From an uncultured Akkermansia sp. (GTDB lineage: Bacteria; Verrucomicrobiota; Verrucomicrobiia; Limisphaerales; UBA9464), in the NCBI GenBank assembly GCA_964430505.1, contig CAYSGH010000001.1:43677-107676 (forward strand): a DNA stretch of 64,000 nt, given 5' to 3'. Below the pieces are notes generated by a model, which was not told the DNA's origin, did no database searches, and worked only from the letters and a program-made list of their open reading frames with translations. Position numbers and translations under genes: made by a program. Below, in pieces: positions 298 to 55,192 of the stretch (the stretch's first letter is position 1; every line of letters starts with the position of its first letter).

Positions 298-3255
298 TCA
301 ATGACGAGTGCAGCACACGGCCGTCGTCGCAGCCCCCGGCTCGATCCGGGCCAGCGGCAGGTGGCTCCGATGCCCGCGGTAGTGGTCCGCCGAGCAACGA
401 ACCCTCGGCAACGGGACGTCGTCACCCTCCAGCGGCTCAAACACGCCCGCGCCCCGGTACACCGAGATGGACGCCTTCGCGGCATCCACGCACGCCAGGC
501 GGATCCAGCGGTTCTCCAGCCATTCCTTCAGCTCCGCGTTGGCATGGATGACGGCCAGCACCACCTCCGGGGTGTTTTCCACCACAAACAGGATCCGGAC
601 CGGCTCGTGGATCTCCACCATCTGCCACGTCAAACCCGTCCGCAGGTCCCCTTGCATCCCGTTCATCACCCCGACGAGGCCCGTCACGTTGTGCGGCAGC
701 TTCGTCCCGCACCCCAGCACCTCGTTGTCCACCGTCGAGAAGTAGTACTCGAGGCTGATGCCGCCGCAGACGGGGATGACCGCGCCCAGGATGTTGCCGA
801 GGAACCGCGACGTCGGGTCGGATGCGTGGTCGTAGGAAATGAGGAAGGCACGGCGGTCCAGGAACAGCCCGCGCGTCGTGTCCCGTCGTCCCACGAAGGC
901 GATGGCGTTCGTGGAATGGCCGTACTCGGGCCGCGGCTCCCCCAGGTGCTCCGATCGCTGCATCACGTGGCGGAGCGCCTCCTCCGGTGCGAGCGACGGG
1001 GACGCGACCTCGAACCGCCGGATGCGCTCGTGGGCGTTCCGTCGCCGCGCCTCGTCCAGCACCGCGCGCAGCGCCGTGAGGTCCGGTCCGTGCGTCGCGG
1101 GCATCCGGTCCAGGTCGAAGAGGTCGATGTCGTCGCTGCACGTGTCGTGGTAGCCGCCCAGGAACCACGTGTCGTCCGGGATGACCAGGCCTCGCGAGCG
1201 CAGCTCGGCGCGCACGTCGGGATGGTTCGCCAACGTCGCGAACAACCGCGCGTTCGGGCCGCCTTGCCGCCCGCCGCACGCGCCGCAGTCGTAGGCCGAC
1301 TCATGCGGGTTGTTCAGGCTCGTCGATCCGTGGCCCAGCACCACCACCAGGCGCGCATGGCCCGACTTCATGCCCATCGGCCCCAGGACGTTCCCCACGC
1401 GGTCGGCCATCTCCGACACGCTGAACCCCATGAACAGCCCCCGCGTGGCCTCGCGCGCCGACTCGTCGTGCCGCATGAAGCGCAGCTCCGTGCGCGGCTC
1501 CGGCAGGAACCGCGCGTTCAGCCAGCGCACCAGCCGGGCGTAGCCCAGCGGCGACAACACCCGCAGCACCAACGGGAACAGGCTGAAGAAGCCCAGCACG
1601 ATGGTGCTGAGCAACCCGCGGACGAGCGTCTGCGACGACACGTTTCCGGACCGCACCAGCCGCGACCAAAGCCTGCGCAGCGCCAGGCGCTTCTCGTGCG
1701 TGTCCGCGTGCCCCTCCGCCGGGCCCTCGCGCACCGCGTGCTGGGGCGTCACCACCACGGGGCACAGCGCCACCGGCCCGGCGTCGTCGATCCCCGCGTA
1801 GTCGATCGCGCACCCAAAGAACCCCGCCGCCCCGTGCGTCTCGACCGACGGCTCGATCTCCTCGATGGCACGCCGGATCGACTCCTCGCGGTCGTCGATG
1901 CAAAACACCATCTGCGCCATGGGCCTTCCCGGCGGCCTCCCGAGGCGGCCTGCCGCGAGGTGCTGGCGCAACGGCACCAAAATCAAGCGCTCGTGCCGAC
2001 GCTCGTAGGCCAGGTGGAGGATGCGCCGACGCTCCATCGATCCCGCCGCGTCCACGGCGTCCACCCAACGTCCCATCCGGGTGTCGTCCAACGCCGCCAG
2101 CGCCGCCGCGCCCATCCCCAGCACCTGCGCCGCGTCGAAGGCTGCCGCCACCCGTTCTAGGTCGCCCGGGCCCGCCTGGGTCACCCGCCGCGCCCGCCAC
2201 AACGACGCCCCGCCCAGCTCGCGTCGCGTCGCCGTCACCACCAGGACCAATCGCACCGCCAGGAAGTCCACCAGCCGCGTCGGCACGATGATGTGCGGCG
2301 CGAGCCCCGGCTTCGCCTCCAGCAATGCCATCATTCCGGACCATCCTGGCAACGCGAGCAGCTCCGCCGTCACAAAATCCTCCCACTCGCCCGGGGGCAC
2401 GCCCAGCTCCGCCAGGCATTGCAACACCGCCGACTCGGAGTCCACCCGCGCCGAGCCCAGCCGTTCAAACGCGTCCCGCAAACCCTCCAGCCCCTGCGGG
2501 GCCACGGACGCCCCGCGTGACAGGAGCTGCACGCACGCCTTGAAGAATCCGTCGCAACGCAGCGGCATCGGCCAGTACGCCACCCCTTGGTCCAGGAACG
2601 CCCCCGCCAGCCGGATGAGCGTCGGGTGTACCCGCTCGTCCATGCCCTCGATCACGTCGGCGGGCCGCCGCGGCACGACCGCCTCGGTCGCGCCGAGGCG
2701 CGGCACGCGGGCCAGGCAGCATTCCCACAGCGCACGCGGGCTGCCGTCGGCCAAGGCCTGCCGCGTTGCCTCCGGCAGGTCGTCCCGGAACCGCTCGAGC
2801 CAGTCGCCCTCCTCCAGGTGCCACGGGATCGTTTCCTGCGGCACGGTCCGGCTTCCCGCCTTCAGCCATGCGCCCACTAACTGCCGCCACGTCAGCCGCC
2901 CGGGCAGGATGTCGGCGTCCAGCTCGCGCGCGAGCACCACGTCGATGTCCGCGTCCAGGATGCGTCCCTGCGCCTGCGCCGCGCGATAGGCCGCCTCCGA
3001 CAGGAAGGGCTCCGAACGAAAGGTGCGTCCCGCCTCAAGCACGGCCTGCTCGAAGGGGATGTGCTGGAACGCATGGAGCGTGTTGTGGTGCACGAACACG
3101 CCGATGGGCCCCTGGATGGGCAACAAGTGCGCCGCGTGCGCAAGGACCCCACGCAGCCGCGCCACATCCCCGCCGACTCCATGAACCTCCGCCCCGCCGT
3201 GGTCCGACATCACCATGGAGGTGAAGCATGGGGACAGAGCTTCCGACGACGCCAT
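298..3255 (-). CDS. dabA: DUF2309 family protein, probable inorganic carbon transporter subunit DabA
   Basis: ORF 298..3393 (-). Motifs: HHNTLHAF near the N-terminus, FCIDDRE, and HGSTSLNNPHESAYDCGACGG (the Cys/Asp and His/Cys zinc-site motifs of DabA). Start is uncertain. ATG at 3255 (MASSE, with GGAG about 8-11 nt upstream) is preferred over 3393 or 3216. Confidence 0.85.
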   Translation of the reverse strand: MASSEALSPCFTSMVMSDHGGAEVHGVGGDVARLRGVLAHAAHLLPIQGPIGVFVHHNTLHAFQHIPFEQAVLEAGRTFRSEPFLSEAAYRAAQAQGRILDADIDVVLARELDADILPGRLTWRQLVGAWLKAGSRTVPQETIPWHLEEGDWLERFRDDLPEATRQALADGSPRALWECCLARVPRLGATEAVVPRRPADVIEGMDERVHPTLIRLAGAFLDQGVAYWPMPLRCDGFFKACVQLLSRGASVAPQGLEGLRDAFERLGSARVDSESAVLQCLAELGVPPGEWEDFVTAELLALPGWSGMMALLEAKPGLAPHIIVPTRLVDFLAVRLVLVVTATRRELGGASLWRARRVTQAGPGDLERVAAAFDAAQVLGMGAAALAALDDTRMGRWVDAVDAAGSMERRRILHLAYERRHERLILVPLRQHLAAGRLGRPPGRPMAQMVFCIDDREESIRRAIEEIEPSVETHGAAGFFGCAIDYAGIDDAGPVALCPVVVTPQHAVREGPAEGHADTHEKRLALRRLWSRLVRSGNVSSQTLVRGLLSTIVLGFFSLFPLVLRVLSPLGYARLVRWLNARFLPEPRTELRFMRHDESAREATRGLFMGFSVSEMADRVGNVLGPMGMKSGHARLVVVLGHGSTSLNNPHESAYDCGACGGRQGGPNARLFATLANHPDVRAELRSRGLVIPDDTWFLGGYHDTCSDDIDLFDLDRMPATHGPDLTALRAVLDEARRRNAHERIRRFEVASPSLAPEEALRHVMQRSEHLGEPRPEYGHSTNAIAFVGRRDTTRGLFLDRRAFLISYDHASDPTSRFLGNILGAVIPVCGGISLEYYFSTVDNEVLGCGTKLPHNVTGLVGVMNGMQGDLRTGLTWQMVEIHEPVRILFVVENTPEVVLAVIHANAELKEWLENRWIRLACVDAAKASISVYRGAGVFEPLEGDDVPLPRVRCSADHYRGHRSHLPLARIEPGAATTAVCCTRH

Positions 3256-3414: not shown

Positions 3415-5040
3415 ATGTCATCGCCTGCATCCATCGCACGTCCGGCCGGGCCCGCGCCCGTCGGCAACCTCGACGGCTTCCGCCGTCACCTCGGCAAGGA
3501 CCTCATGTCGGGGTTCCTGGTCTTCCTGATCGCCCTGCCCCTGTGCCTGGGCATCTCCGTGGCGTCGGGCGCGCCCGCCATCGCCGGCATCTTCACCGCC
3601 GTCATGGGCGGCATGCTGACGCCGTTCCTGAGCAACTCGGAACTCACCATCAAGGGTCCGGCGGCGGGCATGATCGTCATCGTGCTCGGCGCGATGACGG
3701 ACCTGGGCTACGAGAAGGCATTGGCCGTGGGCGTCGTCGCCGGCGTGATCCAGGTCCTGTTCGGGCTGTTTCGCCTCGGGACGTTGGGCGAGTTCTTCCC
3801 GGTCGCGGCCGTGCACGGGATGCTGGCCGCCATCGGCGTCATCATCGTCTCCAAGCAGGTGCACGTCGCGCTCGGGGTGGCCGCCAAGTCCAAGGAACCG
3901 CTGGAGCTCCTCGCCGAGATCCCGCACTCGGTCATGAGCCTGAACCCCGAGCTCGCGATCATCGGCGGCATCTCGCTCGCCATCCTCTTCGGCCGACTGC
4001 TCATCAAGCACCCCGTCGTGCAGAGGATTCCCGGGCCCATGGTGGTGCTCATGGTGGCGACCCCGCTGGGCTACGGGTTCCACCTCGAGCAATCGCACTC
4101 CTACCAGTTCATGGGCCATGAATACGCCGTCGGCCCCAAGAACCTCGTCGCCCTGCCCATGAGCATGCTCTCGGCGATCAAGTTCCCGGACTTCTCGGCC
4201 ATCCTGGGCGTCGCGAGCATCAAGTGGATCGTGATGTACTCGCTGGTGGGCACCCTCGAGTCTTTGCTCAGCGCCAAGGCCGTGGACCTGCTCGACCCCT
4301 GGCAACGCCGCACCAACCTCAACCGCGACCTCCTCGCCGTCGGCCTCGCCAACACCGCCGTCTCCTTCCTCGGCGGCCTTCCCATGATCTCCGAGATCGT
4401 CCGCTCGTCGGCGAACCGCAACAACGGCGCGCGCACCCGCTGGGCCAACTTCTGGCACGGGACGCTCCTCCTGGTCCTGGTCGCCGCCGTGCCCTCGCTC
4501 CTGAACCACATCCCCCTGGCCGCCCTGGCCGGCATGTTGGTCTTCACCGGCTACAACCTCGCCGCGCCCAAGGAGTTCTTCCACATGTGGCACGTCGGCA
4601 AGGGCCAGTTCCTAGTCTTCGTCGTCACGATGGTGGCGACCCTGGCCACCGACCTGCTCGTCGGGATCGCGGCGGGCATCGTGATGAAGCTCGTGCTGCA
4701 CGTGGCCGCCGGGGTGTCCCCCGGGGCCTTGTTCGTCCCCAGCGTGCATCCCACGGTTTGCGAGACCACCGGCGACCCCGTCCTCCGCGTCCGCAAGGCC
4801 GCCGTCTTCTCCAACTGGCTTCCGATCCGCAGCCGCCTGCTGGGGATGAAGAACCAGGCCCCACGCGTCCGCGTGGACCTCTCGGAGGCGCACCTCGTGG
4901 ACCACAGCGTCATCAAGAAGCTCGAGGAAATGGCGCAGGACTGGAAGCTGGAGAACCGCGAACTCCTCGTCGTGGGCCTCGATGAACACCAACCCGTCTC
5001 GGACCATCCCCTGGCCGCCCGCATGCGCCCCAAGGCCTGA
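3415..5040 (+). CDS. SulP family inorganic anion transporter with C-terminal STAS-like domain
   Basis: 541 aa starting at ATG. Polytopic membrane core ([22 protein letters not shown]..., [21 protein letters not shown]) followed by a soluble C-terminal tail ([21 protein letters not shown]). Divergently transcribed from dabA. Confidence 0.85.
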
Positions 5041-5098
5041 TGGCCACGCCCCCGGCCCCGGCGAGACGTTCACGGCTGTGCCATTACCGACACGCTCC

Positions 5099-7485: not shown

Positions 7486-7534
7486 GCCCCCCGCCCCCCG
7501 CCCCCCGCTTCCCGCTTCCCGCTTCCCACTTCCC
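7486..7534. repeat. Heptanucleotide tandem array (GCCCCCC)x3 (GCTTCCC)x3 (ACTTCCC)x1, C-rich on the + strand
   Basis: Read directly: seven consecutive 7-nt units with perfect phase. Lies in the divergent intergenic region between DUF2851 (start 7348) and the MBL hydrolase (start 7634). Related arrays occur at 21492-21540 and 41672-41725. Confidence 0.9.
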
Positions 7535-10463: not shown

Positions 10464-10570
10464 AGGGCTCGCGCGGGGCGGGCGGGATACGCCCTGCCTA
10501 GGCTTCTCGCCATGGCACGGCCGCCACCAAGGCGAACGAGCCATGCGGCACGATTGACCCCGGGTGCCGG

Positions 10571-11641
10571 ATGGATGAAAAAACGGGCATGGCATGGACG
10601 GTCGTTGAGATGTGCGCGGGAGGGGGCGGGCAAATGATCGGACTGCACCGGGCTGGGTTTGAGTGCTTGGCTGCGGTGGAGTTGGATCCCCATGCCTGCG
10701 ACACGCTGCGTGCCAGCGGCATTCCAAGCCGGGTGATTGAGGACGACCTCCGGGCCGTCGGTGGACGGGAGTTCTCGGGCGTGGACCTGCTGGCGGGAGG
10801 GGTGCCTTGCCCTCCCTTCTCCAAGGCTGGCAAGCAACTGGGGCGCGAGGACCAACGCGACCTGTTTCCGGAGGCTTTGAGGCTGGTGCGGGAAATCCGG
10901 CCGCGCGGCGTCATGCTCGAGAACGTGCCCGGCTTCGCCGAGGCCAAGTTTTCGGGCTACCGAGGCGAGCTTCAGCGCGAGCTGAGCGCCATGGGTTATT
11001 CGTCGGAATGGCGGATCCTCCAATCCTCCGACTTTGATGTTCCACAGCTCCGCCCGCGATTCGTGCTGGTGGCGCTGATGCCCGCCGACATGGACTGCTT
11101 CCAATGGCCCGAGGGCACGCGAACACCCAGGACCGTGGGCGAGACGTTGGCGGGCGTGATGGGTTCGCGGGGATGGCGCGGTACCGGCCAGTGGACGGAA
11201 AAGGCCAACCGCATTGCGCCCACGGTCGTGGGCGGTTCCAAGTTGCATGGCGGCCCGGACCTCGGCCCCACACGGGCCAAGCGCCAGTGGCGGGAGTTGC
11301 ACGTGGACGGGATGGGCATCGCCAACGCGCCTCCCGAGGCGATGGCGCCCCCAGATCTGATGCCCCGGTTGACTGTTGGGATGGTGGCGCTCCTGCAAAG
11401 CTTCCCAGAGGACTGGCGTTTCTCGGGAGGCAAGACAGCCCAGTACCGTCAGGTCGGCAATGCGTTTCCCCCGAAGGTTGCCTGTGCGGTCGCCTCGTCC
11501 ATCCGCCGCGCATGGAGCGGAGGCGCATGGTCCCCGGAGTTTGGGTACTTCCAGTTCGAGTCACGGCTTTGCGATGCGCCCCGGAACCTGATCGAGGGCA
11601 AGGCATCGAGACGACGTCCCACGCAACGTGCGCTTCCATGA
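10571..11641 (+). CDS. DNA (cytosine-5)-methyltransferase, type II R-M modification subunit
   Basis: C5-MTase motifs in order: motif I EMCAGGGG, motif IV GGVPCPPFS, motif VI MLENVPGF, motifs IX/X QSFPEDWRF...QYRQVGNAFPP. Its stop overlaps the start of the next gene (ATGA at 11638-11641). Confidence 0.9.
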   Translation: MDEKTGMAWTVVEMCAGGGGQMIGLHRAGFECLAAVELDPHACDTLRASGIPSRVIEDDLRAVGGREFSGVDLLAGGVPCPPFSKAGKQLGREDQRDLFPEALRLVREIRPRGVMLENVPGFAEAKFSGYRGELQRELSAMGYSSEWRILQSSDFDVPQLRPRFVLVALMPADMDCFQWPEGTRTPRTVGETLAGVMGSRGWRGTGQWTEKANRIAPTVVGGSKLHGGPDLGPTRAKRQWRELHVDGMGIANAPPEAMAPPDLMPRLTVGMVALLQSFPEDWRFSGGKTAQYRQVGNAFPPKVACAVASSIRRAWSGGAWSPEFGYFQFESRLCDAPRNLIEGKASRRRPTQRALP

Positions 11642-12495
11642 AACGATCCCTCCTCCAGGTCCAACGACAGGCTTTCCACGCCGACCTGGTTGCCGAGACC
11701 TTGGTCATCGATGAAAACGGCAATGCGTCGATATCCGACACGTCCCAGGCACTGAGCCGGAAACTGGGCCTCGGCTTGGCGAGGCGGCTCGGGGCCAAAG
11801 CCTCGGGCAAGCTCAAGGGGCAAACAGCCGGGAAGAACTTCGAGGCTGCCGTTGCGAGCTTTTTGCGAAGGACCTTCCCCAAGCTGGACGCACTCAGGCC
11901 GGGACGATGGGAGATCCAGGAACTGGGTCAGGCCGGGCATGAGGGCATCACGGGCACCGAGCAGTTCCAGCATCTGTTGGCGATTCGTGAGGCCTGCGAG
12001 CGGGATCCGGAGCTCCAGGTGACCTTGGGTTCCGATTACCTCATCATGCCGGACATCCTCGTCGTCCGTCGTCCCGAGCCTGATGAGGTGATCAATCGCC
12101 ATGGCTGGATGGTGGACCCCACGATTGCACGGAGGACCCCCATTCGGTCGTTGAACAGTGAACTCCCGATTGCCCACGCGAGCGTCTCGTGCAAGTGGAC
12201 GATCCGAAGCGACCGGGCCCAAAACTCCCGTTCGGAGGCCCTGAACCTGATTCGCAACCGCAAGGGGCGTCTGCCGCATATCGCCGTCGTCACCGCCGAG
12301 CCTACTCCCTCGCGGATTTCATCCCTTGCCCTTGGGACCGGCGACATTGACTGCGTCTATCACTTCGCTCTGCCCGAGCTTGAGGAGGAGGTGCAGGCCG
12401 CCGGGGATGAAACCGGGATGGACCTCCTGAAGATGATGGTCGAGGGGCGTCGCCTTCGTGACATTGCCGACCTGCCGTTGGACCTCGCCGTGTAA
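11638..12495 (+). CDS. Type II restriction endonuclease, NgoMIV/Cfr10I/Bse634I family (probable GCCGGC specificity)
   Basis: Internal ATG at 11638 within ORF 11104..12495 gives 285 aa. The PDILVV ... SVSCKWTIRSDRAQNSRSEALNLIRNRKGRLPHIAVVTAEPTPSRISSLALGTGDIDCVYHFAL ... DLPLDLAV block closely matches my memory of NgoMIV, including the S-x-K active-site variant. Confidence 0.8.
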   Translation: MKRSLLQVQRQAFHADLVAETLVIDENGNASISDTSQALSRKLGLGLARRLGAKASGKLKGQTAGKNFEAAVASFLRRTFPKLDALRPGRWEIQELGQAGHEGITGTEQFQHLLAIREACERDPELQVTLGSDYLIMPDILVVRRPEPDEVINRHGWMVDPTIARRTPIRSLNSELPIAHASVSCKWTIRSDRAQNSRSEALNLIRNRKGRLPHIAVVTAEPTPSRISSLALGTGDIDCVYHFALPELEEEVQAAGDETGMDLLKMMVEGRRLRDIADLPLDLAV

Positions 12496-12572
12496 GCCGC
12501 GCCCCGGAGAACAAGCTTCCCGAACGGCGAGCCGTGGGTAGCATTTCGCGCGAACTACGCACACGAGAGCAC

Positions 12573-20809: not shown

Positions 20810-21490
20810 ATGTTGGAACGAGTGATCGCGATCGACGGCGGTGCCGCCACGGGCAAGAGCACGGCCATGGTGCGGCTGAGCCGTCACCTAGGGTGGCGGG
20901 GCATCTCGACCGGGCACGTGTACCGGGCGGCAACGATGCTCGCGATGGCGGAGGGGATCGGGCCGGCGGATGCGGCGGGGCGGCTGGCGGAGCGGCTGCG
21001 TGCCGGGGCGTTGGACTACGACGTCGAGGCGCAGGCCTATGGGATCCGGGATGCCTCGGGCGGGCTGCGCCTGCTGGCCGTGGAGGCGTTGACGTCGCCG
21101 GAGGTATCCGCGTTGACGCCGCAGTACAGCCGGGTGCCGGAGGTCCGGGCGGCGTTGCTGGACTTCCAGCGCGGGTTGTTTGCCGAGCCAGGGTTGGTCG
21201 CGGACGGGCGCGACTGCGGCACGGTGGTGTTTCCCAACGCGCGGTTGAAGGTGTGGCTGGAGGTCGATCCCGTGGAGGCGGCGCGGCGGCTGGAGCGTGG
21301 CCTTGGGATGACATTTGCCGCCGCCTACGCGGACGTGCTGGAACGCAACCTCGCGGACCGGAATCGCCCGAACCCGATGCGTCCAGCGGAGGATGCGCTG
21401 GTGATGGACACGACGCGGCTGACGCCGGACGAGGTGTTGCGGGTGTTGGTGGAGCTGGCGCGGCGGCGGGGGTTTGTCCGGGGGGCGTAG
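20810..21490 (+). CDS. cmk: (d)CMP kinase
   Basis: ORF 20801 starts at TTG; ATG at 20810. P-loop IAIDGGAATGKST; overall length and layout fit cytidylate kinase. Confidence 0.8.
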   Translation: MLERVIAIDGGAATGKSTAMVRLSRHLGWRGISTGHVYRAATMLAMAEGIGPADAAGRLAERLRAGALDYDVEAQAYGIRDASGGLRLLAVEALTSPEVSALTPQYSRVPEVRAALLDFQRGLFAEPGLVADGRDCGTVVFPNARLKVWLEVDPVEAARRLERGLGMTFAAAYADVLERNLADRNRPNPMRPAEDALVMDTTRLTPDEVLRVLVELARRRGFVRGA

Positions 21491-21491
21491 C

Positions 21492-21540
21492 GGGAAGCGG
21501 GAAGCGGGAAGCGAGGGGCGGGGGGGCGGGGGGGCGGGGC
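21492..21540. repeat. Heptamer-type tandem array (GGGAAGC)x3 GAGGGGC (GGGGGGGC)x2 GGGGC, G-rich on the + strand
   Basis: Read directly. It is the reverse complement of the architecture at 7486-7534. Begins 2 nt after the cmk stop and ends about 98 nt before the proposed rex start. Confidence 0.9.
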
Positions 21541-41461: not shown

Positions 41462-41671
41462 GAGAGTGCGCAGTCTCTATCGCCACCCGCCCGGGCCGTC
41501 AATCGGGCGTCCCCGACGCCGCCCAACTTTCCCGGGGAAACGCTTGCCGTCCCGACGCCCGGGGCCGTTTACTCCGCGTGCCAGGGTCCATGGATCGGGG
41601 GCTTGCAAACCCCGCCAGGGCAGGAATGCAGCAACGGTAGCTTGATCCCCGATTGCCGTGGGTGCCCTGGC

Positions 41672-41725
41672 ACTTCCCCCCCTTTCGCCCGCCCTCCGCT
41701 TCCCGCCCCCCGCTTCCCGCTTCCC
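41672..41725. repeat. Degenerate heptamer array ACTTCCC..GCCCTCC GCTTCCC GCCCCCC GCTTCCC GCTTCCC, C-rich on the + strand
   Basis: Read directly. Five in-phase heptamers at 41691-41725 plus a related ACTTCCC upstream. Lies in the 363-nt divergent intergenic region upstream of htpG (ATG at 41825). Confidence 0.85.
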
Positions 41726-41824
41726 CATCGCCCTCCTTGACACACCCGGCCGCTGGGACACTAGAAAGGGCGGAGGGCGCGGCCTCCCTTCAACAAGGCG
41801 CGCCCCATCGACATCACATCGAAC

Positions 41825-44730: not shown

Positions 44731-46592
44731 GTGCGACGTTTCCTTCCAAGCCTGGCCAGCGCGTCCTTCACCGACCACCGGGCCGCCTCCAACGCCGCGT
44801 CGGCTTCGTCGTGCGTCGCCCTCGAAAGCTCCATCACGATGCGTGCCGCGCGGTCGCGCAGCTTCGCGTTCGAGGGGTTCAGGTCCACCATGAGGTTCCC
44901 CACCACCTTGCCGCGCCGCACCATGGCCAGCGTCGTCAGGATGTTCAGCACCACCTTCGTCGCCGTGCCGGCCTTCAGCCGCGTGGAACCCGTCAGCACC
45001 TCCGGGCCGGTGTCGATGGCCAGCAAGACGTCGGGCGGGCCGTCCCGCAGGGGCTGGATGCCCGGGTTGAAGCACAGCAAGGCCGTGGAGGCGCCGCGCC
45101 GACGGGCCTCATGCAGCGCTCCCCAAACAAACGGCGTCCGGCCGCTGGCGGCGATGCCCACGACCACGTCGAGTGGACCCACGCCGCGTCCCGCGATGGC
45201 GGCCGCTCCTTGGTCCGGGCTGTCCTCCGCGCCTTCCACCGCCGAATGCAACGCGGGGAACCCGCCGGCGATGATGCCCTGAACCCATTCGGGCGGGCTC
45301 TTGAACGTGGGCGGGCACTCGCTGGCGTCGAGCACGCCCAGCCGTCCGCTCGTCCCCGCGCCCACATAGATCAACCGTCCGCCCGCACCGAAGGCCGCCG
45401 CGACGCGCCGCACCAGCAAGGCCAGCTTGCGCGCATGGGGCCGGATCGCCCCGGCCACGCGCGATTCCTCGTCCAGCATCAAGCCCACCGCACGCTCCAC
45501 GGGCATGCGGTCGAGTTCCATGGAGGCCGGGTTGCGCAGCTCCGTGGGAGAAAGCCCGCGTGAGCCCGGGATGGGGCACGTCTCATCCGCCCCGTCCGCC
45601 CCGTCCGCCCTGTCCGCCCTATCTGGCCTAGCTGGCCTATCCCCACCCGCCCTGCGCCACGCGCGCGCCCCCATGACCACGGCTCCCCACGCAGAATCCC
45701 GCTCCAGCGGAATGACCCGTACCCGGGGCATCGCCTGGCGCACCCGGGCCGCCACGCGGCGCGCAAAACCGGCCTGTCGCAACACCACGGAACCCGCCAA
45801 AACAACATCCGCGCCCTCCTTGCAGGAGCCCAGCTTGCGGATGCAGGCCACGGCATCCTCCGCGAGGATGGCCACGGTGTCTGCAAGCACCGCCCGCGCG
45901 ACGACATCGCCCGCGGACGCGGCCTCAAACACCTCCGGCGCGAGGGCGGCGACGTCGGTCTTCGTGGCGGCCTGCATCCACGCGATGAGGTCGTTGGGCG
46001 CGTTGAGGCCCGTGGCACGCAGCGCGCGTTGGCCCAGGCGACACCAACGGCCCGAGTGATCCAAGTGATGCGCGGCGGCACGGAGCGCGCGGTGGACCAC
46101 GTCGTAGGCGCTGCCGCGGTCGCCCAGCAAATGGCCCCATCCGCCCACCTTGGCCGTCCTGCCCGAGGCCGAACGCCCGTAGCAACAGGAGCCCGTGCCG
46201 CTCAGGAGGATCACGCGATGCCGACGCGATGCCGGAAGATCCAGGTCGGCGGCGCACAGGGCGGACTCGAGATCGTGGTCAGCCTCGGCGGGTACGCCGG
46301 GGAAAACACGGCCGAGGACGTTGAGGACACGTTGGATGTCGGCCGCGTCGCGCACGCCGGCCATGCCGACGCCCACGCCGGAAGGAGACGGGAACGTGGC
46401 GGCGATGGATCGAAAGTGGGACTCCAGCGCGTCGTCGGTGACGAGGCGGAGGTTGCAAGGCCCGGTCTCGAATCGCGCGGGGGATCCGAGCGACCCGTCG
46501 TCCTGGGCGATGGCCCCGATGGCGACGGACCGCGTGCCGCCGCATTCGATGCCCAGGAAGAACGGGCGGGAGGAACCGGGGGTGGGGCTCAT
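44727..46592 (-). CDS. Fusion protein: BadF/BadG/BcrA/BcrD-type (GlcNAc-kinase-like) ATPase plus N-acetylmuramic acid 6-phosphate etherase (MurQ, SIS domain)
   Basis: ATG at 46592 (the ORF-track start 46622 is GTG). N-terminal half: FFLGIECGGTRS, GTGSCCYG, GGWGHLLGDRGSAYD. Linker: DRPARPDRADRADGADGADE. C-terminal half: RLIYVGAGTSGRLGVLDASECPPTF...GIAASGRTPF...TGSTRLKAGTATKVVLN (MurQ-like). Confidence 0.75.
   Translation of the reverse strand: MSPTPGSSRPFFLGIECGGTRSVAIGAIAQDDGSLGSPARFETGPCNLRLVTDDALESHFRSIAATFPSPSGVGVGMAGVRDAADIQRVLNVLGRVFPGVPAEADHDLESALCAADLDLPASRRHRVILLSGTGSCCYGRSASGRTAKVGGWGHLLGDRGSAYDVVHRALRAAAHHLDHSGRWCRLGQRALRATGLNAPNDLIAWMQAATKTDVAALAPEVFEAASAGDVVARAVLADTVAILAEDAVACIRKLGSCKEGADVVLAGSVVLRQAGFARRVAARVRQAMPRVRVIPLERDSAWGAVVMGARAWRRAGGDRPARPDRADRADGADGADETCPIPGSRGLSPTELRNPASMELDRMPVERAVGLMLDEESRVAGAIRPHARKLALLVRRVAAAFGAGGRLIYVGAGTSGRLGVLDASECPPTFKSPPEWVQGIIAGGFPALHSAVEGAEDSPDQGAAAIAGRGVGPLDVVVGIAASGRTPFVWGALHEARRRGASTALLCFNPGIQPLRDGPPDVLLAIDTGPEVLTGSTRLKAGTATKVVLNILTTLAMVRRGKVVGNLMVDLNPSNAKLRDRAARIVMELSRATHDEADAALEAARWSVKDALARLGRKRRT
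45586..45639. repeat. 9-bp tandem repeat x6 (TCCGCCCCG-type) encoding the inter-domain linker of the kinase-MurQ fusion
   Basis: Units read directly: TCCGCCCCG, TCCGCCCCG, TCCGCCCTG, TCCGCCCTA, TCTGGCCTA, GCTGGCCTA. On the coding (minus) strand this translates to RPARPDRADRADGADGAD. Confidence 0.9.
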
Positions 46593-53071: not shown

Positions 53072-55192
53072 CTAGGTGGCCCGACGCCGCCATTTCGCGA
53101 CAAACATGCCGCTTCCCCCCGTTTCTTGCGGCCAAAACACCATGGACGCAGAAGGGGGGGCGTCGGCCTTGAACGGATTCGTGAATGGCAAAGGCTCGAA
53201 TTCCGCATGAGCCTTCAGGAAGGACTCGTAAACACCCAACGTTTCCGCGCGGGTTAGGGTGCAGACGGAATAGACCAACTGTCCGCCAGGCTTCACCGCC
53301 TCGGCGGCCCGTCCCAGCAACGCCAACTGGCGCGCGGCCAGCTCGTCGACGTCCTTGGGCTGCACCGTCCAGCGCGCATGTGGGTTGCGTCCCCACGTTC
53401 CCAGTCCCGTGCACGGCGCATCCACGAGCACCCCGTCGAACCCTCCCTCACCCGGGATGGGTTGCGCGTCCTCCCATGCCGCCCAGCGCACACCGCGTAG
53501 TTTCGCGCGCGAGATGCGTTGCTGGAGCCGGTCCAGCCGCCACTCGGCCCGGTCGGTCGCCAGGACCGTGCCCTTGCCCGCCAAAAGGTCGGCCAAGTGG
53601 AGCGTCTTGCCTCCTTCGCCAGCACACACGTCCCACCATCGTTCCTCCGTCGCAGGCGGCTTCGGCACGCAGCAATGGCCCACGGCCTGCGACGCGACAT
53701 CCTGGATCTCAAACTCGCCCTTGTGGAAGCCGGGCGTCTTGAACAGGTCCTTGAGCCCCCGGTATTCCACCGAGTCCGGTACCGGTCCCGGCACGGCGTC
53801 CGGGTCGCCCCCGAGCGCCGCCGCAACACCCACCCCCTGCCCCGGACGAGCACGCAGCCACAGGCGAGGCTCTCGTTGCAACGCCCGCAGCCATTCGACG
53901 GGCACGTCCATGGCCTCCCGAACCCAAGCGGGCACGGCGTGTGCCGCAAGGGCCTCGTCCTTCACGAAGCCGGGCTTGCGCGAATACGTGTCCGCAAAGC
54001 CCGTTGCCTGGTCGATGCGACGCTCCAGCGGAATCTCCGCGTCCAGCCAGCCTTGCCACCGGAAATACGCAAACACGGCTCGGCTGATCCAGCGCGTCTC
54101 CTCCGGCGACAGGCCGCTCGCCATCTTCATCGTGGAACGTAATTCCCGGTCCGCCGCCCTGTGGGGACCCGACCGCGCCACGATGCGGGCCGCCCATTGC
54201 ACCGGCGTCCGCTGCTGACGCGGCCGGGGGGGTTGGGTCGGCCGTTCGGCACCCGAAGCGCCTCCCTCGCGACGCTCGCCCGCATCCTGGCGCCCCCGGA
54301 ACCCACGATCTGGACGGGGTCCCCGACGCTCCCATGGGCGCGAACCCGCCACGGGACGGTCGCCTCCAAATCCGCCGCCCTGTTCGTCGCGGGGATCGTA
54401 GGGCCGTGTCGGCGGAGGTGAGGACGGGCCGTCCGCACCCCGTCCAAGGCCGGGTCCGGCGAAGCCCTCGGGCCGTTGCCAACCGGGGCGCGGGGGGCGG
54501 TCGCGAAACGGAGGTCGGTCACCGCCGCCGCCGCCGCCATCCCAGGGACGACGATACGAGGGACGTTCACCACCGCCTCGATCGTCGAACGGACGTCGGA
54601 AGGGAGGGCGGTCGCCACCTCGATCCTCGAAGGGCCGTCGGAAGGGAGGGCGACCACCTCCCCACGGCCGACCCTGCTGGTTGCCGGATCCGAAGGACGG
54701 ACGCGGCCCCCATGCGCCGCGAGGACGGTATCCACCCTCCGGCGCTCCGCCTGCATCGGGAGGAGTCCCGTCGGCCGGTCGGCCCCGGAACGGAGGACGC
54801 CCTTGCGGGCGGTCGTCGAAGGAGCGCTGGAAGGAGCGCTGGAAGGGCGGTCGGCCGCCGCCATCAGGCCGCGGGCGACCTTCCCACGGCCGACCTGCCG
54901 GAGGTCGATCTCCCGGTGGACGGTCTCCCTGCGGTCGAAATGGGGGACGGCTTGGCCTTCCGAAGCCTTGCCCTCCCCAAGGCCGCCGCTCGGGGGCCGC
55001 GCCACTTGGACGAGGCCCCGCCTCGGGCGCGCCGCCGGATTCCATGCCGGGCGCGCCCCGTTGCTGCCACGGCCGGGCTTGCCGTGGCCTTCCTCCTCGC
55101 ATGTCACCACCGTAGGGCCGTCGCGGGCCTGGCCCGGAGCGGTGGACCTTCTGCCAGAACGGGCGCTTTTGTCCGTCTTCGGGTGAATTCAT
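53072..55192 (-). CDS. RsmB/NOL1/NOP2/Sun-family RNA (cytosine-C5)-methyltransferase with ~330 aa Arg/Gly/Pro-rich N-terminal extension
   Basis: C-terminal MTase motifs: EIQDVASQ, WDVCAGEGGKT, DGVLVDAPCTGLGTWGRNP, LVYSVCT. The N-terminal 330 aa are low-complexity with DRPPFRRPF(E/D)DRGG repeats. The start ATG overlaps the upstream stop (ATGA at 55189-55192). Confidence 0.7.
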   Translation of the reverse strand: MNSPEDGQKRPFWQKVHRSGPGPRRPYGGDMRGGRPRQARPWQQRGAPGMESGGAPEAGPRPSGAAPERRPWGGQGFGRPSRPPFRPQGDRPPGDRPPAGRPWEGRPRPDGGGRPPFQRSFQRSFDDRPQGRPPFRGRPADGTPPDAGGAPEGGYRPRGAWGPRPSFGSGNQQGRPWGGGRPPFRRPFEDRGGDRPPFRRPFDDRGGGERPSYRRPWDGGGGGGDRPPFRDRPPRPGWQRPEGFAGPGLGRGADGPSSPPPTRPYDPRDEQGGGFGGDRPVAGSRPWERRGPRPDRGFRGRQDAGERREGGASGAERPTQPPRPRQQRTPVQWAARIVARSGPHRAADRELRSTMKMASGLSPEETRWISRAVFAYFRWQGWLDAEIPLERRIDQATGFADTYSRKPGFVKDEALAAHAVPAWVREAMDVPVEWLRALQREPRLWLRARPGQGVGVAAALGGDPDAVPGPVPDSVEYRGLKDLFKTPGFHKGEFEIQDVASQAVGHCCVPKPPATEERWWDVCAGEGGKTLHLADLLAGKGTVLATDRAEWRLDRLQQRISRAKLRGVRWAAWEDAQPIPGEGGFDGVLVDAPCTGLGTWGRNPHARWTVQPKDVDELAARQLALLGRAAEAVKPGGQLVYSVCTLTRAETLGVYESFLKAHAEFEPLPFTNPFKADAPPSASMVFWPQETGGSGMFVAKWRRRAT
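54570..54653. repeat. 42-bp tandem duplication inside the RsmB-like N-terminal extension
   Basis: CCTCGATCGTCGAACGGACGTCGGAAGGGAGGGCG starts at 54576 and CCTCGATCCTCGAAGGGCCGTCGGAAGGGAGGGCG at 54618, an offset of 42 nt. Together they encode two 14-aa RPPFRRPF(E/D)DRGG(D/G) units. Confidence 0.8.

What the first reader, a model, noticed from the sequence alone, without database searches (positions are those of the whole stretch)
7486..7534. Family of C-rich heptanucleotide tandem arrays (GCCCCCC)n(GCTTCCC)n confined to three intergenic regions
Seven in-phase 7-nt units (3x GCCCCCC, 3x GCTTCCC, 1x ACTTCCC) sit in the divergent promoter region between the DUF2851 gene and the MBL/beta-CASP hydrolase gene. 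The same two-part architecture recurs at 21492-21540 (inverted) and 41672-41725. I found no other copy in 64 kb. All three lie outside the gene models, and two lie in divergent promoter regions. The complementary strand carries four or more runs of G3-7 separated by single C residues, which is a textbook G-quadruplex motif, and the C strand is i-motif-capable. The shared GCTTCCC x3 core is too specific to be a by-product of GC richness. I do not recognise this as a described REP/BIME-type element. Possible roles are a protein-binding operator, a structural promoter element, or a slippage-prone contingency repeat.
Basis: seen in the sequence. Interest (0 to 1): 0.65.

Follow-up and report, generated by a model that had tools for sequence, protein, structure and literature searches.

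The report
Hypervariable C-rich heptanucleotide microsatellite arrays
The three C-rich 7-base tandem arrays are real, but they are fast-mutating microsatellites of an already described bacterial kind (G-rich heptamer repeats able to form quadruplexes): they change unit number between near-identical strains and are absent from the sister species, so they are not a conserved regulatory element.

Summary
Arrays of GCTTCCC/GCCCCCC units sit at 7486-7534, 21492-21539 (inverted) and 41691-41725, all non-coding, and nowhere else in the 64 kb. The host is an uncultured Verrucomicrobiota species.

- **Strain variation.** Contigs of the same species from many metagenomes show all three arrays changing by whole units (7, 14, 15 and 49 nt) while 300 nt of flank stay 100% identical.
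- **Deeper divergence.** At 97-98% identity the unit sequence itself changes (GCCCACC; octamer GGGGAAGC). In the sister species (~85% nt) synteny is kept but the arrays at sites 2 and 3 are absent.
- **What they are not.** They share no flanks, form no hairpin and match no Rfam family. The monomer is not enriched outside the arrays.
- **G-quadruplex motif.** The canonical motif is present, but it follows from base composition alone.
- **Specificity.** Same-composition control heptamers form triple arrays about as often in IMG/VR.
- **Closest known kind.** They match the G-rich heptameric simple sequence repeats (SSRs) of Xanthomonas and Nostoc (Rehm et al. 2015) in density, intergenic bias and unit variation. 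They also fit the rule that the G-rich strand starts just after a stop codon, which I reproduced across about 100 arrays from other phyla.

Verdict: a new member of a known kind, generated by replication slippage, with no shown function. Two corrections: site 3 follows an unnoticed SRP RNA gene, and the G-run half of site 2 has period 8, not 7.

The parts
7486..7534 (+). Site 1 array, C-rich strand on +: GCCCCCC x3 (7486-7506), GCTTCCC x3 (7507-7527), ACTTCCC (7528-7534). It lies 100 nt upstream of the MBL/beta-CASP ATG (7634) and 138 nt from the DUF2851 start (7348, - strand).
   Evidence: Sequence; TRF period 7; flanking genes by Pfam. At least 6 alleles occur among same-species contigs, e.g. 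P3-T5 in L129/L130 and P3-S-P2-T2-A in L127.
21492..21512 (-). Site 2, heptamer half: (GGGAAGC)3 on the + strand, equivalent to (GCTTCCC)3 on the - strand. It starts 1 nt after the cmk stop codon.
   Evidence: Sequence; TRF period 7, 100% matches. L137, L141, L143 and L144 carry 2 units instead of 3, with identical flanks.
21513..21539 (-). Site 2, G-run half: GAGGGGC GGGGGGGC GGGGGGGC GGGG on the + strand (period 8).
   Evidence: TRF period 8. L144 lacks one octamer. L142 has (GGGGAAGC)6 GGGGAGGC (GGGAGGC)2 GGGAAAC instead.
21488..21490 (+). cmk stop codon TAG, directly abutting the G-rich array ('TAGC GGGAAGC').
   Evidence: cmk = 20810-21490, an exact product match in 21 contigs. The same stop-then-array arrangement occurs in 20 of 35 comparable arrays from other phyla.
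41691..41725 (+). Site 3 array, C-rich strand on +: GCCCTCC GCTTCCC GCCCCCC GCTTCCC GCTTCCC. It is preceded by a degenerate C/T-rich tract (41672-41690).
   Evidence: Sequence; TRF periods 7 and 14. L124 carries +49 nt, a (GCCCTCC GCTTCCC) expansion plus a third terminal GCTTCCC, with 150/150 identical flanks on both sides.
41579..41675 (+). Context: SRP (4.5S) RNA gene. The site 3 array lies in its C-rich, G-poor 3' trailer.
   Evidence: Rfam RF00169, 71.9 bits, E = 5e-14, full-length; conserved in the sister species. Trailer composition is C 66% / G 11%.
41737..41767 (+). Context: htpG promoter-like motif TTGACA-N17-ACTAGA(AA), immediately downstream of the site 3 array.
   Evidence: The motif is conserved upstream of htpG in relatives at 91%, 87% and 73% HtpG identity, while the array is not. 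The strict sigma-70 scan did not call it.

Best explanation
The three arrays are copies of a lineage-specific, hypermutable heptanucleotide microsatellite in an uncultured Verrucomicrobiota species. The units are GCTTCCC and GCCCCCC, which read GGGAAGC and GGGGGGC on the other strand.

**Shown**
- The arrays gain and lose whole units far faster than their flanks accumulate substitutions.
- The unit sequence turns over within the species.
- The arrays are missing at the same syntenic positions in the sister species.
- They have no shared flanks, no hairpin and no enriched monomer.

**Inferred**
- The generating mechanism is slipped-strand mispairing at replication. This is the explanation proposed for the general excess of heptamer SSRs in large, GC-rich genomes (Mrazek 2007, as cited in PMC4692102).
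- Slippage is possibly helped by the strand asymmetry, with a G4-capable G strand and an i-motif-capable C strand.
- A 7-nt unit shifts the reading frame, so arrays survive only in non-coding DNA.

Any effect on neighbouring genes is most likely an incidental, graded by-product rather than a selected switch. Candidate effects are on the cmk 3' end, the SRP RNA trailer, and spacing upstream of the htpG and MBL promoters.
For: **Polymorphism with invariant flanks**
- Site 1 spans 60, 67, 67 and 74 nt. Site 2 spans 55, 48, 40 and 93 nt. Site 3 spans 62 and 111 nt.
- Several of these alleles sit between flanks identical at 147/147 and 150/150 positions (sequences).
- The same alleles recur in independent assemblies (L137/L141/L143; L129/L130), which argues against assembly error.
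- Same-species contigs are 99.3-100% identical overall.
- Many short-read contigs end in or next to the arrays.

**Turnover**
- L128 (97.9% identity) has GCCCACC, GCTCCCC and GCTCCTC units. L142 (96.7%) has an octamer GGGGAAGC array.
- The sister species (~85% nt) keeps GFO-ffs-htpG and sulfatase-cmk-rex-rlmN synteny but has no array. TRF finds no array of period 6-8, 14 or 21 (at least 20 nt) in about 40 kb of it.
- MBL relatives at 81% and 75% aa identity have no array.

**Not an element with structure or flanks**
- DNA folds are no better than shuffles, z = +0.9 to +2.9.
- The flanks of the three sites share no similarity.
- No Rfam family overlaps the arrays.

**Not sequence-privileged**
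- The monomer occurs 18 times outside the arrays against 17.8 expected.
- Same-composition heptamers form x3 arrays 5-21 times each in IMG/VR.

**Class match**
- Rehm et al. 2015.
Against: - All three period-7 arrays in the window use the same unit pair. The same GCTTCCC unit also recurs several times per genome in Gemmatimonadaceae and other lineages. Pure neutral slippage from random seeds does not predict this, so some unit-specific mutational bias, spread by recombination, or selection remains unexplained.
- The orientation-dependent position next to stop codons is hard to explain without a strand-specific process: 20/35 against 5/34 arrays within 10 nt, Fisher p = 4e-4.
- A C/T-rich tract persists after ffs in the sister species.
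- Only 64 kb of this genome, plus strain variants of it, could be examined.
Confidence: 0.75

Rival explanations
1. Selected G-quadruplex / C-rich cis-element acting on transcription or RNA 3' ends. On this reading the G-rich strand placed just after a stop codon forms a DNA or RNA G4 that defines or protects the mRNA 3' end or pauses RNA polymerase. The C-rich strand placed after the untranslated SRP RNA would serve as a Rho-loading (rut-like) tract.
For: - All three arrays carry the canonical G3+N1-7 x4 motif, with two predicted tandem G4s each.
- Across 64 intergenic (GCTTCCC)>=3 arrays from other phyla, the array lies closer to the 5' neighbour on the G-rich strand 44:20 (p = 0.004).
- When that neighbour is co-oriented, the array starts within 10 nt of its stop codon in 20/35 cases, against 5/34 in the opposite orientation (p = 4e-4).
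- Rehm et al. found the same rule, and G4 and i-motif formation in vitro, for GGGAATC.
- The ffs trailer is C 66% / G 11% here and is still C-rich in the sister species.
Against: - The arrays are absent at the orthologous cmk and ffs positions in the sister species.
- Shuffled sequences of the same composition are predicted to be equally G4-prone.
- In IMG/VR, heptamers that keep a C3/G3 run are not commoner than those that break it: 12, 7, 9 and 6 against 14, 21 and 5.
- Orientation relative to the downstream gene differs among the three sites.
- Rehm et al. could not show any regulatory role.
Confidence: 0.14
2. Contingency (phase-variable or rheostat) loci. Unit-number changes upstream of the MBL and htpG genes would tune their expression, as the ATCTTTC heptamer repeats do in the Haemophilus influenzae hmw 5' UTR.
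For: - Unit number is hypervariable in natural populations.
- Sites 1 and 3 lie about 100 nt upstream of start codons.
- There is precedent for heptamer SSRs controlling expression through the 5' UTR (PMC12721329).
Against: - The neighbouring genes are housekeeping genes (cmk, rex, ffs, htpG, an RNA-processing-type MBL hydrolase), not surface or host-interaction genes.
- At site 3 the array lies upstream of the conserved -35-like hexamer. It is therefore neither in the promoter spacer nor in the htpG 5' UTR.
- Site 2 is downstream of a gene.
- The arrays are short (5-9 units) and are not retained in the sister species.
- Rehm et al. reached the same negative conclusion for their class.
Confidence: 0.07
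3. Operator array for a sequence-specific DNA-binding protein. Three 7-bp units span 21 bp, about two helical turns.
For: The same unit is present at three unlinked loci in one genome. The 21-bp phasing argument is inference.
Against: - Isolated GCTTCCC occurs at expectation and mostly inside genes.
- Unit sequence and even unit length change between strains of one species.
- There is no conservation in the sister species.
- Orientation and distance to the neighbouring genes are inconsistent.
Confidence: 0.03
4. REP/BIME- or MITE-like mobile or palindromic element.
For: The arrays are dispersed, short, intergenic and multi-copy. In some Gemmatimonadaceae genomes the same units occur as inverted pairs around a conserved core.
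Against: - The window copies contain no inverted repeat or hairpin, and their folds are weaker than shuffles.
- They have no shared flanks, terminal repeats or target duplications.
- Copy-to-copy differences are whole-unit indels, not transposition.
Confidence: 0.01

Closest known systems
G-rich heptameric SSRs (GGGAATC / GGGGAYT) of Xanthomonas and Nostoc (Rehm et al. 2015, PLoS One, PMC4692102)
   Same: - The unit is 7 nt, a G3-4 tract plus 3-4 variable bases, and arrays can mix unit types.
- Density is similar: about 186 copies per 5 Mb there, 3 per 64 kb here.
- Copies are about 90% intergenic.
- Unit number and sequence vary between close relatives, and arrays are not retained at the same genes between species.
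- The arrays carry a canonical G4 motif.
[quoted passage not shown] Site 2 fits the first pattern; sites 1 and 3 fit the second.
- Function is unknown.
   Different: - The unit is different (GGGAAGC/GGGGGGC) and so is the phylum (Verrucomicrobiota).
- At least one of the three copies (site 1) lies between divergent genes, a position under-represented in Xanthomonas. Site 3 lies between divergent protein-coding genes but directly follows the SRP RNA gene.
- One half of site 2 has an 8-nt period.
- Polymorphism is documented here at the within-species (>99% identity) level, from metagenomes.
General over-representation of heptanucleotide SSRs in large, GC-rich prokaryotic genomes (Mrazek et al. 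2007, as summarised in PMC4692102)
   Same: The genome is high-GC (68%), the unit is a heptamer, and the arrays are non-coding. Polymerase slippage is the proposed cause in both cases.
   Different: That work is statistical and does not describe this unit or this lineage.
STRR heptanucleotide repeats of heterocystous cyanobacteria, and TAACTGA repeats of Beggiatoaceae (MacGregor 2015, PMC4679880)
   Same: Each is a lineage-specific preferred heptamer that is tandemly repeated, intergenic and multi-copy. The monomer frequency does not predict the arrays, and the function is unknown.
   Different: Those units are AT-richer and cannot form G4. The TAACTGA arrays sit within a few nucleotides upstream of start codons, which is not the case here.
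Haemophilus influenzae hmw 5'-UTR ATCTTTC heptamer repeats (PMC12721329)
   Same: Both are hypervariable heptamer SSRs in non-coding DNA upstream of a gene, and short-read contigs break at them.
   Different: The hmw repeats number 11 or more, lie in a 5' UTR that pairs with a G-rich arm to form an RNase III hairpin, and control an adhesin. Here the arrays have 5-9 units, no complementary arm, and housekeeping neighbours.

Membership tests
G-rich heptameric G4-capable SSRs (Rehm et al. 2015) | Head-to-tail 7-nt units with a G3 or longer tract, at least 2 units (14 bp or more); heterogeneous units allowed | tested here: met
   Units are GGGAAGC, GGGGGGC, GGGAAGT and GGGAGGC. The one exception is the 8-nt G-run half of site 2.
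G-rich heptameric G4-capable SSRs (Rehm et al. 2015) | Multi-copy and dispersed in the genome, with a strong bias to non-coding DNA | tested here: met
   There are 3 copies in 64 kb, all non-coding, against about 93% coding sequence. The rest of the genome could not be fetched. Of 102 arrays with the same unit in other GC-rich genomes, 74% are intergenic.
G-rich heptameric G4-capable SSRs (Rehm et al. 2015) | Extensive unit-number and sequence variation between close relatives; not retained at the same genes between species | tested here: met
   strains; sister species and further relatives.
G-rich heptameric G4-capable SSRs (Rehm et al. 2015) | [quoted passage not shown] | tested here: inconclusive
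   - Site 2: 1 nt against 99 nt (clearly met).
- Site 1: 100 against 138 nt (weak).
- Site 3: 100 against 211 nt for protein-coding genes, but the SRP RNA gene abuts the other side.
- For the unit in general the rule is met.
G-rich heptameric G4-capable SSRs (Rehm et al. 2015) | G4 (and i-motif) formation of the oligonucleotide in vitro | not testable with these tools
   Only the motif and a ViennaRNA gquad prediction are available. The prediction does not differ from composition-matched shuffles.
Contingency / phase-variation SSR loci | SSR placed in an ORF, promoter spacer or 5' UTR so that a unit change switches expression; associated with surface or host-interaction genes | tested here: not met
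   Hypermutability is met. However, the neighbouring genes are housekeeping genes, the site 3 array lies upstream of the conserved -35-like hexamer, and site 2 is downstream of a gene. Any effect on expression could not be tested.
REP/BIME-type extragenic palindromes | Imperfect palindrome able to form a stable stem-loop; conserved consensus | tested here: not met
   DNA folds of both strands at all three sites are weaker than or equal to shuffles. The flanks show no consensus.
Known structured RNA families (Rfam 15) | Match to a covariance model at the gathering score | tested here: not met
   The only hit in the window is the SRP RNA next to site 3. None overlaps the arrays proper.

The most novel reading that the evidence does not exclude
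GGGAAGC-type heptamer arrays, together with the GGGAATC and GGGGAYT arrays of other lineages, could be a cross-phylum, strand-specific functional class. It would be installed immediately 3' of stop codons on the sense strand, for example as an RNA/DNA G-quadruplex that defines 3' ends or acts as a termination element in GC-rich bacteria poor in U-tract terminators. Each lineage would keep one preferred unit because a lineage-specific factor, or a property of its polymerase, recognises it. The rapid turnover seen here would then be birth-and-death of functionally interchangeable elements rather than neutrality.
Probability: 0.1. Interest if true: 0.65.

Novelty: new member of a known kind. Interest (0 to 1): 0.3.

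Why it matters
For annotation, the arrays should be labelled as hypervariable heptanucleotide SSRs, not as operators or novel elements. They are useful as strain-typing (VNTR) markers for this uncultured Verrucomicrobiota species, and they explain why short-read assemblies of it break at these points.

More broadly, the data extend a poorly understood phenomenon to Verrucomicrobiota, Gemmatimonadota, Acidobacteriota and other phyla. The phenomenon is that each lineage has one preferred G-rich heptamer, amplified at many intergenic sites and placed in an orientation-dependent way next to stop codons. Metagenome strain variants also turn out to be a cheap way to measure the turnover of such arrays. 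Why one unit dominates per lineage, and why the G strand hugs stop codons, remains an open question that experiments could address.

Tried and rejected
- **Promoter and terminator scans** of the three regions found nothing under the strict consensus.
- **Fetching the rest of the source genome failed.**
  - The metagenome scan for the junction GCCCCYCGCTTCCCGCTTCCC gave 17 hits, none from this species.
- **Exact look-ups** with cmk from the TTG start codon and with rlmN found no record. cmk from ATG 20810 worked.
- **Gene calling.** The first two home-made GC3 gene callers missed genes with over-extended starts. I replaced them with a suffix-score caller.
- **Mobile element idea** rejected: the flanks share nothing.
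- **Hairpin or REP idea** rejected.
- **Sequence-specific G4 signal** rejected: composition-matched shuffles score the same.
- **GCTTCCC as a globally privileged heptamer** rejected by the IMG/VR permutation controls. IMG/VR is a viral collection, so it is only a proxy for bacterial genomes.
- **Hammerhead-like CUGAUGAG core** between inverted arrays in one Gemmatimonadaceae genome: no Rfam hit.
- **Literature search for the unit itself** (GGGAAGC/GCTTCCC) returned only primers and unrelated text.

Full report
**1. Observation**

The three arrays exist as described, with minor corrections.
- Site 1 (7486-7534, + strand) reads GCCCCCC x3, GCTTCCC x3, ACTTCCC.
- Site 2 reads (GGGAAGC)3 on the + strand at 21492-21512, then GAGGGGC, GGGGGGGC x2 and GGGG to 21539. 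Tandem Repeats Finder gives that second half a period of 8.
- Site 3 is degenerate. The in-phase run is GCCCTCC GCTTCCC GCCCCCC GCTTCCC GCTTCCC at 41691-41725.

A search for GCTTCCCGCTTCCC with up to 2 mismatches finds 10 matches, all inside these sites, against 1.6 +/- 1.4 in shuffles. (GCCCCCC)2 alone is barely above chance.

The flanking genes are as follows (Pfam).
- Site 1: DUF2851 (- strand) and a beta-CASP MBL hydrolase (+ strand).
- Site 2: cytidylate kinase (+) and Rex (+).
- Site 3: a GFO/IDH/MocA oxidoreductase (-) and HtpG (+).

Rfam adds an SRP RNA gene at 41579-41675 (+), so site 3 lies in the 3' trailer of that RNA and not in a plain divergent promoter. With about 93% of the window coding, three of three arrays in non-coding DNA has p of roughly 3e-4.

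**2. Organism and strain variants**

Exact-sequence look-ups of HtpG, the MBL protein and Cmk place the window in an uncultured Verrucomicrobiota species. That species has been assembled from many metagenomes. These contigs are 99.3-100% identical to the window, with two more diverged lineages at 97.9% (L128) and 96.7% (L142).

**3. The arrays are hypervariable**

*Site 1.* Writing P = GCCCCCC, T = GCTTCCC, A = ACTTCCC and S = GCTCCCC, the alleles are:
- P3-T3-A in the window;
- P3-T5 in L129 and L130;
- P3-S-P2-T2-A in L127;
- at least four T then A in L136;
- T-A-T-A in L132;
- in L128, units GCCCACC x2, GCTCCCC, GCTCCTC, GCTTCCC, GCTCCCC, GCACCCC.

*Site 2.* The alleles are:
- three GGGAAGC units in the window, L140 and L145;
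- two units in L137, L141 and L143;
- two units and one octamer fewer in L144;
- (GGGGAAGC)6 GGGGAGGC (GGGAGGC)2 GGGAAAC in L142.

*Site 3.* Five contigs match the window. L124 carries 49 extra nucleotides, a (GCCCTCC GCTTCCC) expansion plus a third terminal GCTTCCC. L126 also has three terminal units.

Anchoring on 150-nt flanks gives interval lengths of 60/67/67/74, 55/48/40/93 and 62/111 nt. In several cases both flanks are 100% identical. Identical alleles in independent assemblies argue against assembly error. Many short-read contigs stop in or beside the arrays. The indel rate in the arrays therefore far exceeds the substitution rate around them.

**4. The arrays are short-lived**

- The sister species (HtpG 91% aa, Cmk 88% aa, about 85% nt) keeps the GFO-ffs-htpG order and the htpG promoter-like motif TTGACA-N17-ACTAGAAA. 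After ffs it has only an irregular C/T-rich tract.
- It also keeps sulfatase-cmk-rex-rlmN, but the cmk-rex spacer is 61 nt with no array.
- TRF finds no array of period 6-8, 14 or 21 in about 40 kb of that species. Taken alone this is weak evidence, because about 1.9 arrays would be expected at the window's density.
- A relative at 87% HtpG identity has one (GCTCCCC)n array between two co-directional genes.
- MBL relatives at 81% and 75% aa identity have no array.

**5. What the arrays are not**

- Neither strand forms a hairpin better than shuffles, z = +0.9 to +2.9.
- The flanks of the three sites share nothing.
- No Rfam family covers the arrays.
- The isolated heptamer occurs 18 times outside the arrays against 17.8 expected, mostly inside genes.
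- Each G-rich strand has 7-9 runs of G3 or longer and satisfies the canonical G4 motif, but mononucleotide shuffles are predicted to be just as G4-prone. The motif follows from composition.

**6. Is GCTTCCC special?**

These spread over many phyla, with several loci per genome in Gemmatimonadaceae and some other lineages.

In IMG/VR, x3 arrays of heptamers with the same composition are about equally common:

| Unit | x3 arrays |
|---|---|
| GCTTCCC | 12 |
| GTCTCCC | 7 |
| GCCCTTC | 9 |
| GTTCCCC | 6 |
| GCTCTCC | 14 |
| GCCTTCC | 21 |
| GCTCCTC | 5 |
| GATTCCC (the Xanthomonas unit) | 3 |

Heptamer tandem arrays as such are common, GCTTCCC has no global privilege, and units that keep a G3 run are not favoured. 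What remains unexplained is the preference within a lineage: every period-7 array in this window uses the same unit pair.

**7. Context rule across phyla**

I applied a GC3-based gene caller to the fetched loci with GC of at least 0.60.
- 75 of 102 arrays are intergenic.
- Among the 64 with genes on both sides, the array is closer to the 5' neighbour on the G-rich strand 44:20, p = 0.004.
- When that neighbour is co-oriented, the array starts within 10 nt of its stop codon in 20 of 35 cases (median 7 nt). In the opposite orientation the figure is 5 of 34 (Fisher p = 4e-4).
- Typical junctions read TGAGC-, TAGC- or TAAC-GGGAAGC. Site 2 of the window (TAGC GGGAAGC) is one of these.

**8. Comparison with the literature**

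Rehm et al. 2015 (PMC4692102) described GGGAATC repeats in Xanthomonas and GGGGAYT repeats in Nostoc. Their findings were:
- about 186 copies per genome, 89-93% of them intergenic;
- heterogeneous units, 2-26 units per array, and frequent inverted pairs;
- no retention at the same genes between species;
- G4 and i-motif formation in vitro;
- no identified function.

They cite Mrazek 2007 for the general heptamer excess in large GC-rich genomes, and polymerase slippage as its proposed cause. MacGregor 2015 (PMC4679880) and the cyanobacterial STRR repeats are further lineage-specific heptamer families. The H. influenzae hmw heptamer repeat (PMC12721329) is the best-understood functional heptamer SSR, but it works through a long 5'-UTR hairpin that has no counterpart here.

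**9. Conclusion**

The finding is a new member of a known kind, with a new unit and a new phylum. It is a hypermutable G-rich/C-rich heptanucleotide SSR generated by slipped-strand mispairing, tolerated only outside reading frames, and turning over within a species.

A selected role as operator, promoter element or classical contingency switch is not supported. A strand-specific role at RNA or DNA 3' ends cannot be excluded, and it is the most interesting residual possibility.

Noticed in passing
window 41579-41675 (+): Full-length bacterial small SRP (4.5S) RNA gene (Rfam RF00169, 71.9 bits) between the oxidoreductase gene and htpG, conserved in the sister species. Its 62-nt 3' trailer is C 66% / G 11% and has no intrinsic terminator.
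   Followed up: partly
window 41737-41767 (+): The htpG promoter-like motif TTGACA-N17-ACTAGA(AA) is conserved upstream of htpG in relatives at 91%, 87% and 73% protein identity (L147, L151, L153). The strict sigma-70 scan missed it.
   Followed up: partly
window ~10500-12500; L127, L130, L131 versus L128, L132-L136: Strain-variable island downstream of the MFS transporter gene. Some strains, including the window, carry a DNA methylase plus an NgoMIV-like restriction enzyme. Others carry a PLD/DEAD-helicase DUF3427 gene at the same place.
   Followed up: no
window 45586-45641 and 54559-54658: Two 9-nt tandem repeats (TCCGCCCCG x3.8, CCTATCTGG x2.7) lie inside the BcrAD_BadFG-like gene. A 42-nt x2.4 repeat lies inside a called ORF (54127-55110, -). 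They look like in-frame coding repeats.
   Followed up: no
L123 1-60 (Logan SRR14492199): The contig joins an unrelated left flank (ctagcccctccacaacaaaagaccctgccccc, absent from the window) to the last two units of the site 3 array. This is either a chimera through another array copy elsewhere in the genome or a rearrangement at the repeat.
   Followed up: partly
L002 ~3050-3170, L083 ~4990-5090, also L058, L067, L108 (Gemmatimonadaceae MAG SMAG_U8540): Dispersed element made of an inverted pair (GGGAAGC)n - conserved ~45-nt core (..CACCTGATGAGTACCGTC..) - (GCTTCCC)n. It has no Rfam match. It resembles the inverted repeat pairs Rehm et al. saw in Xanthomonas.
   Followed up: partly
L151 6695-6733: A relative at 87% HtpG identity has a (GCTCCCC)n heptamer array filling the 42-nt gap between the stop codon of a PSCyt/PSD1 gene and the start of the DUF1501 gene.
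   Followed up: no
L112, L114, L024, L093 (other Verrucomicrobiota): (GCTTCCC)n arrays there are also composite. They abut arrays of other heptamers (CTCAGCT / CCCTCAG, GCTTACC, ACTTCCC), so the two-part architecture is common.
   Followed up: no
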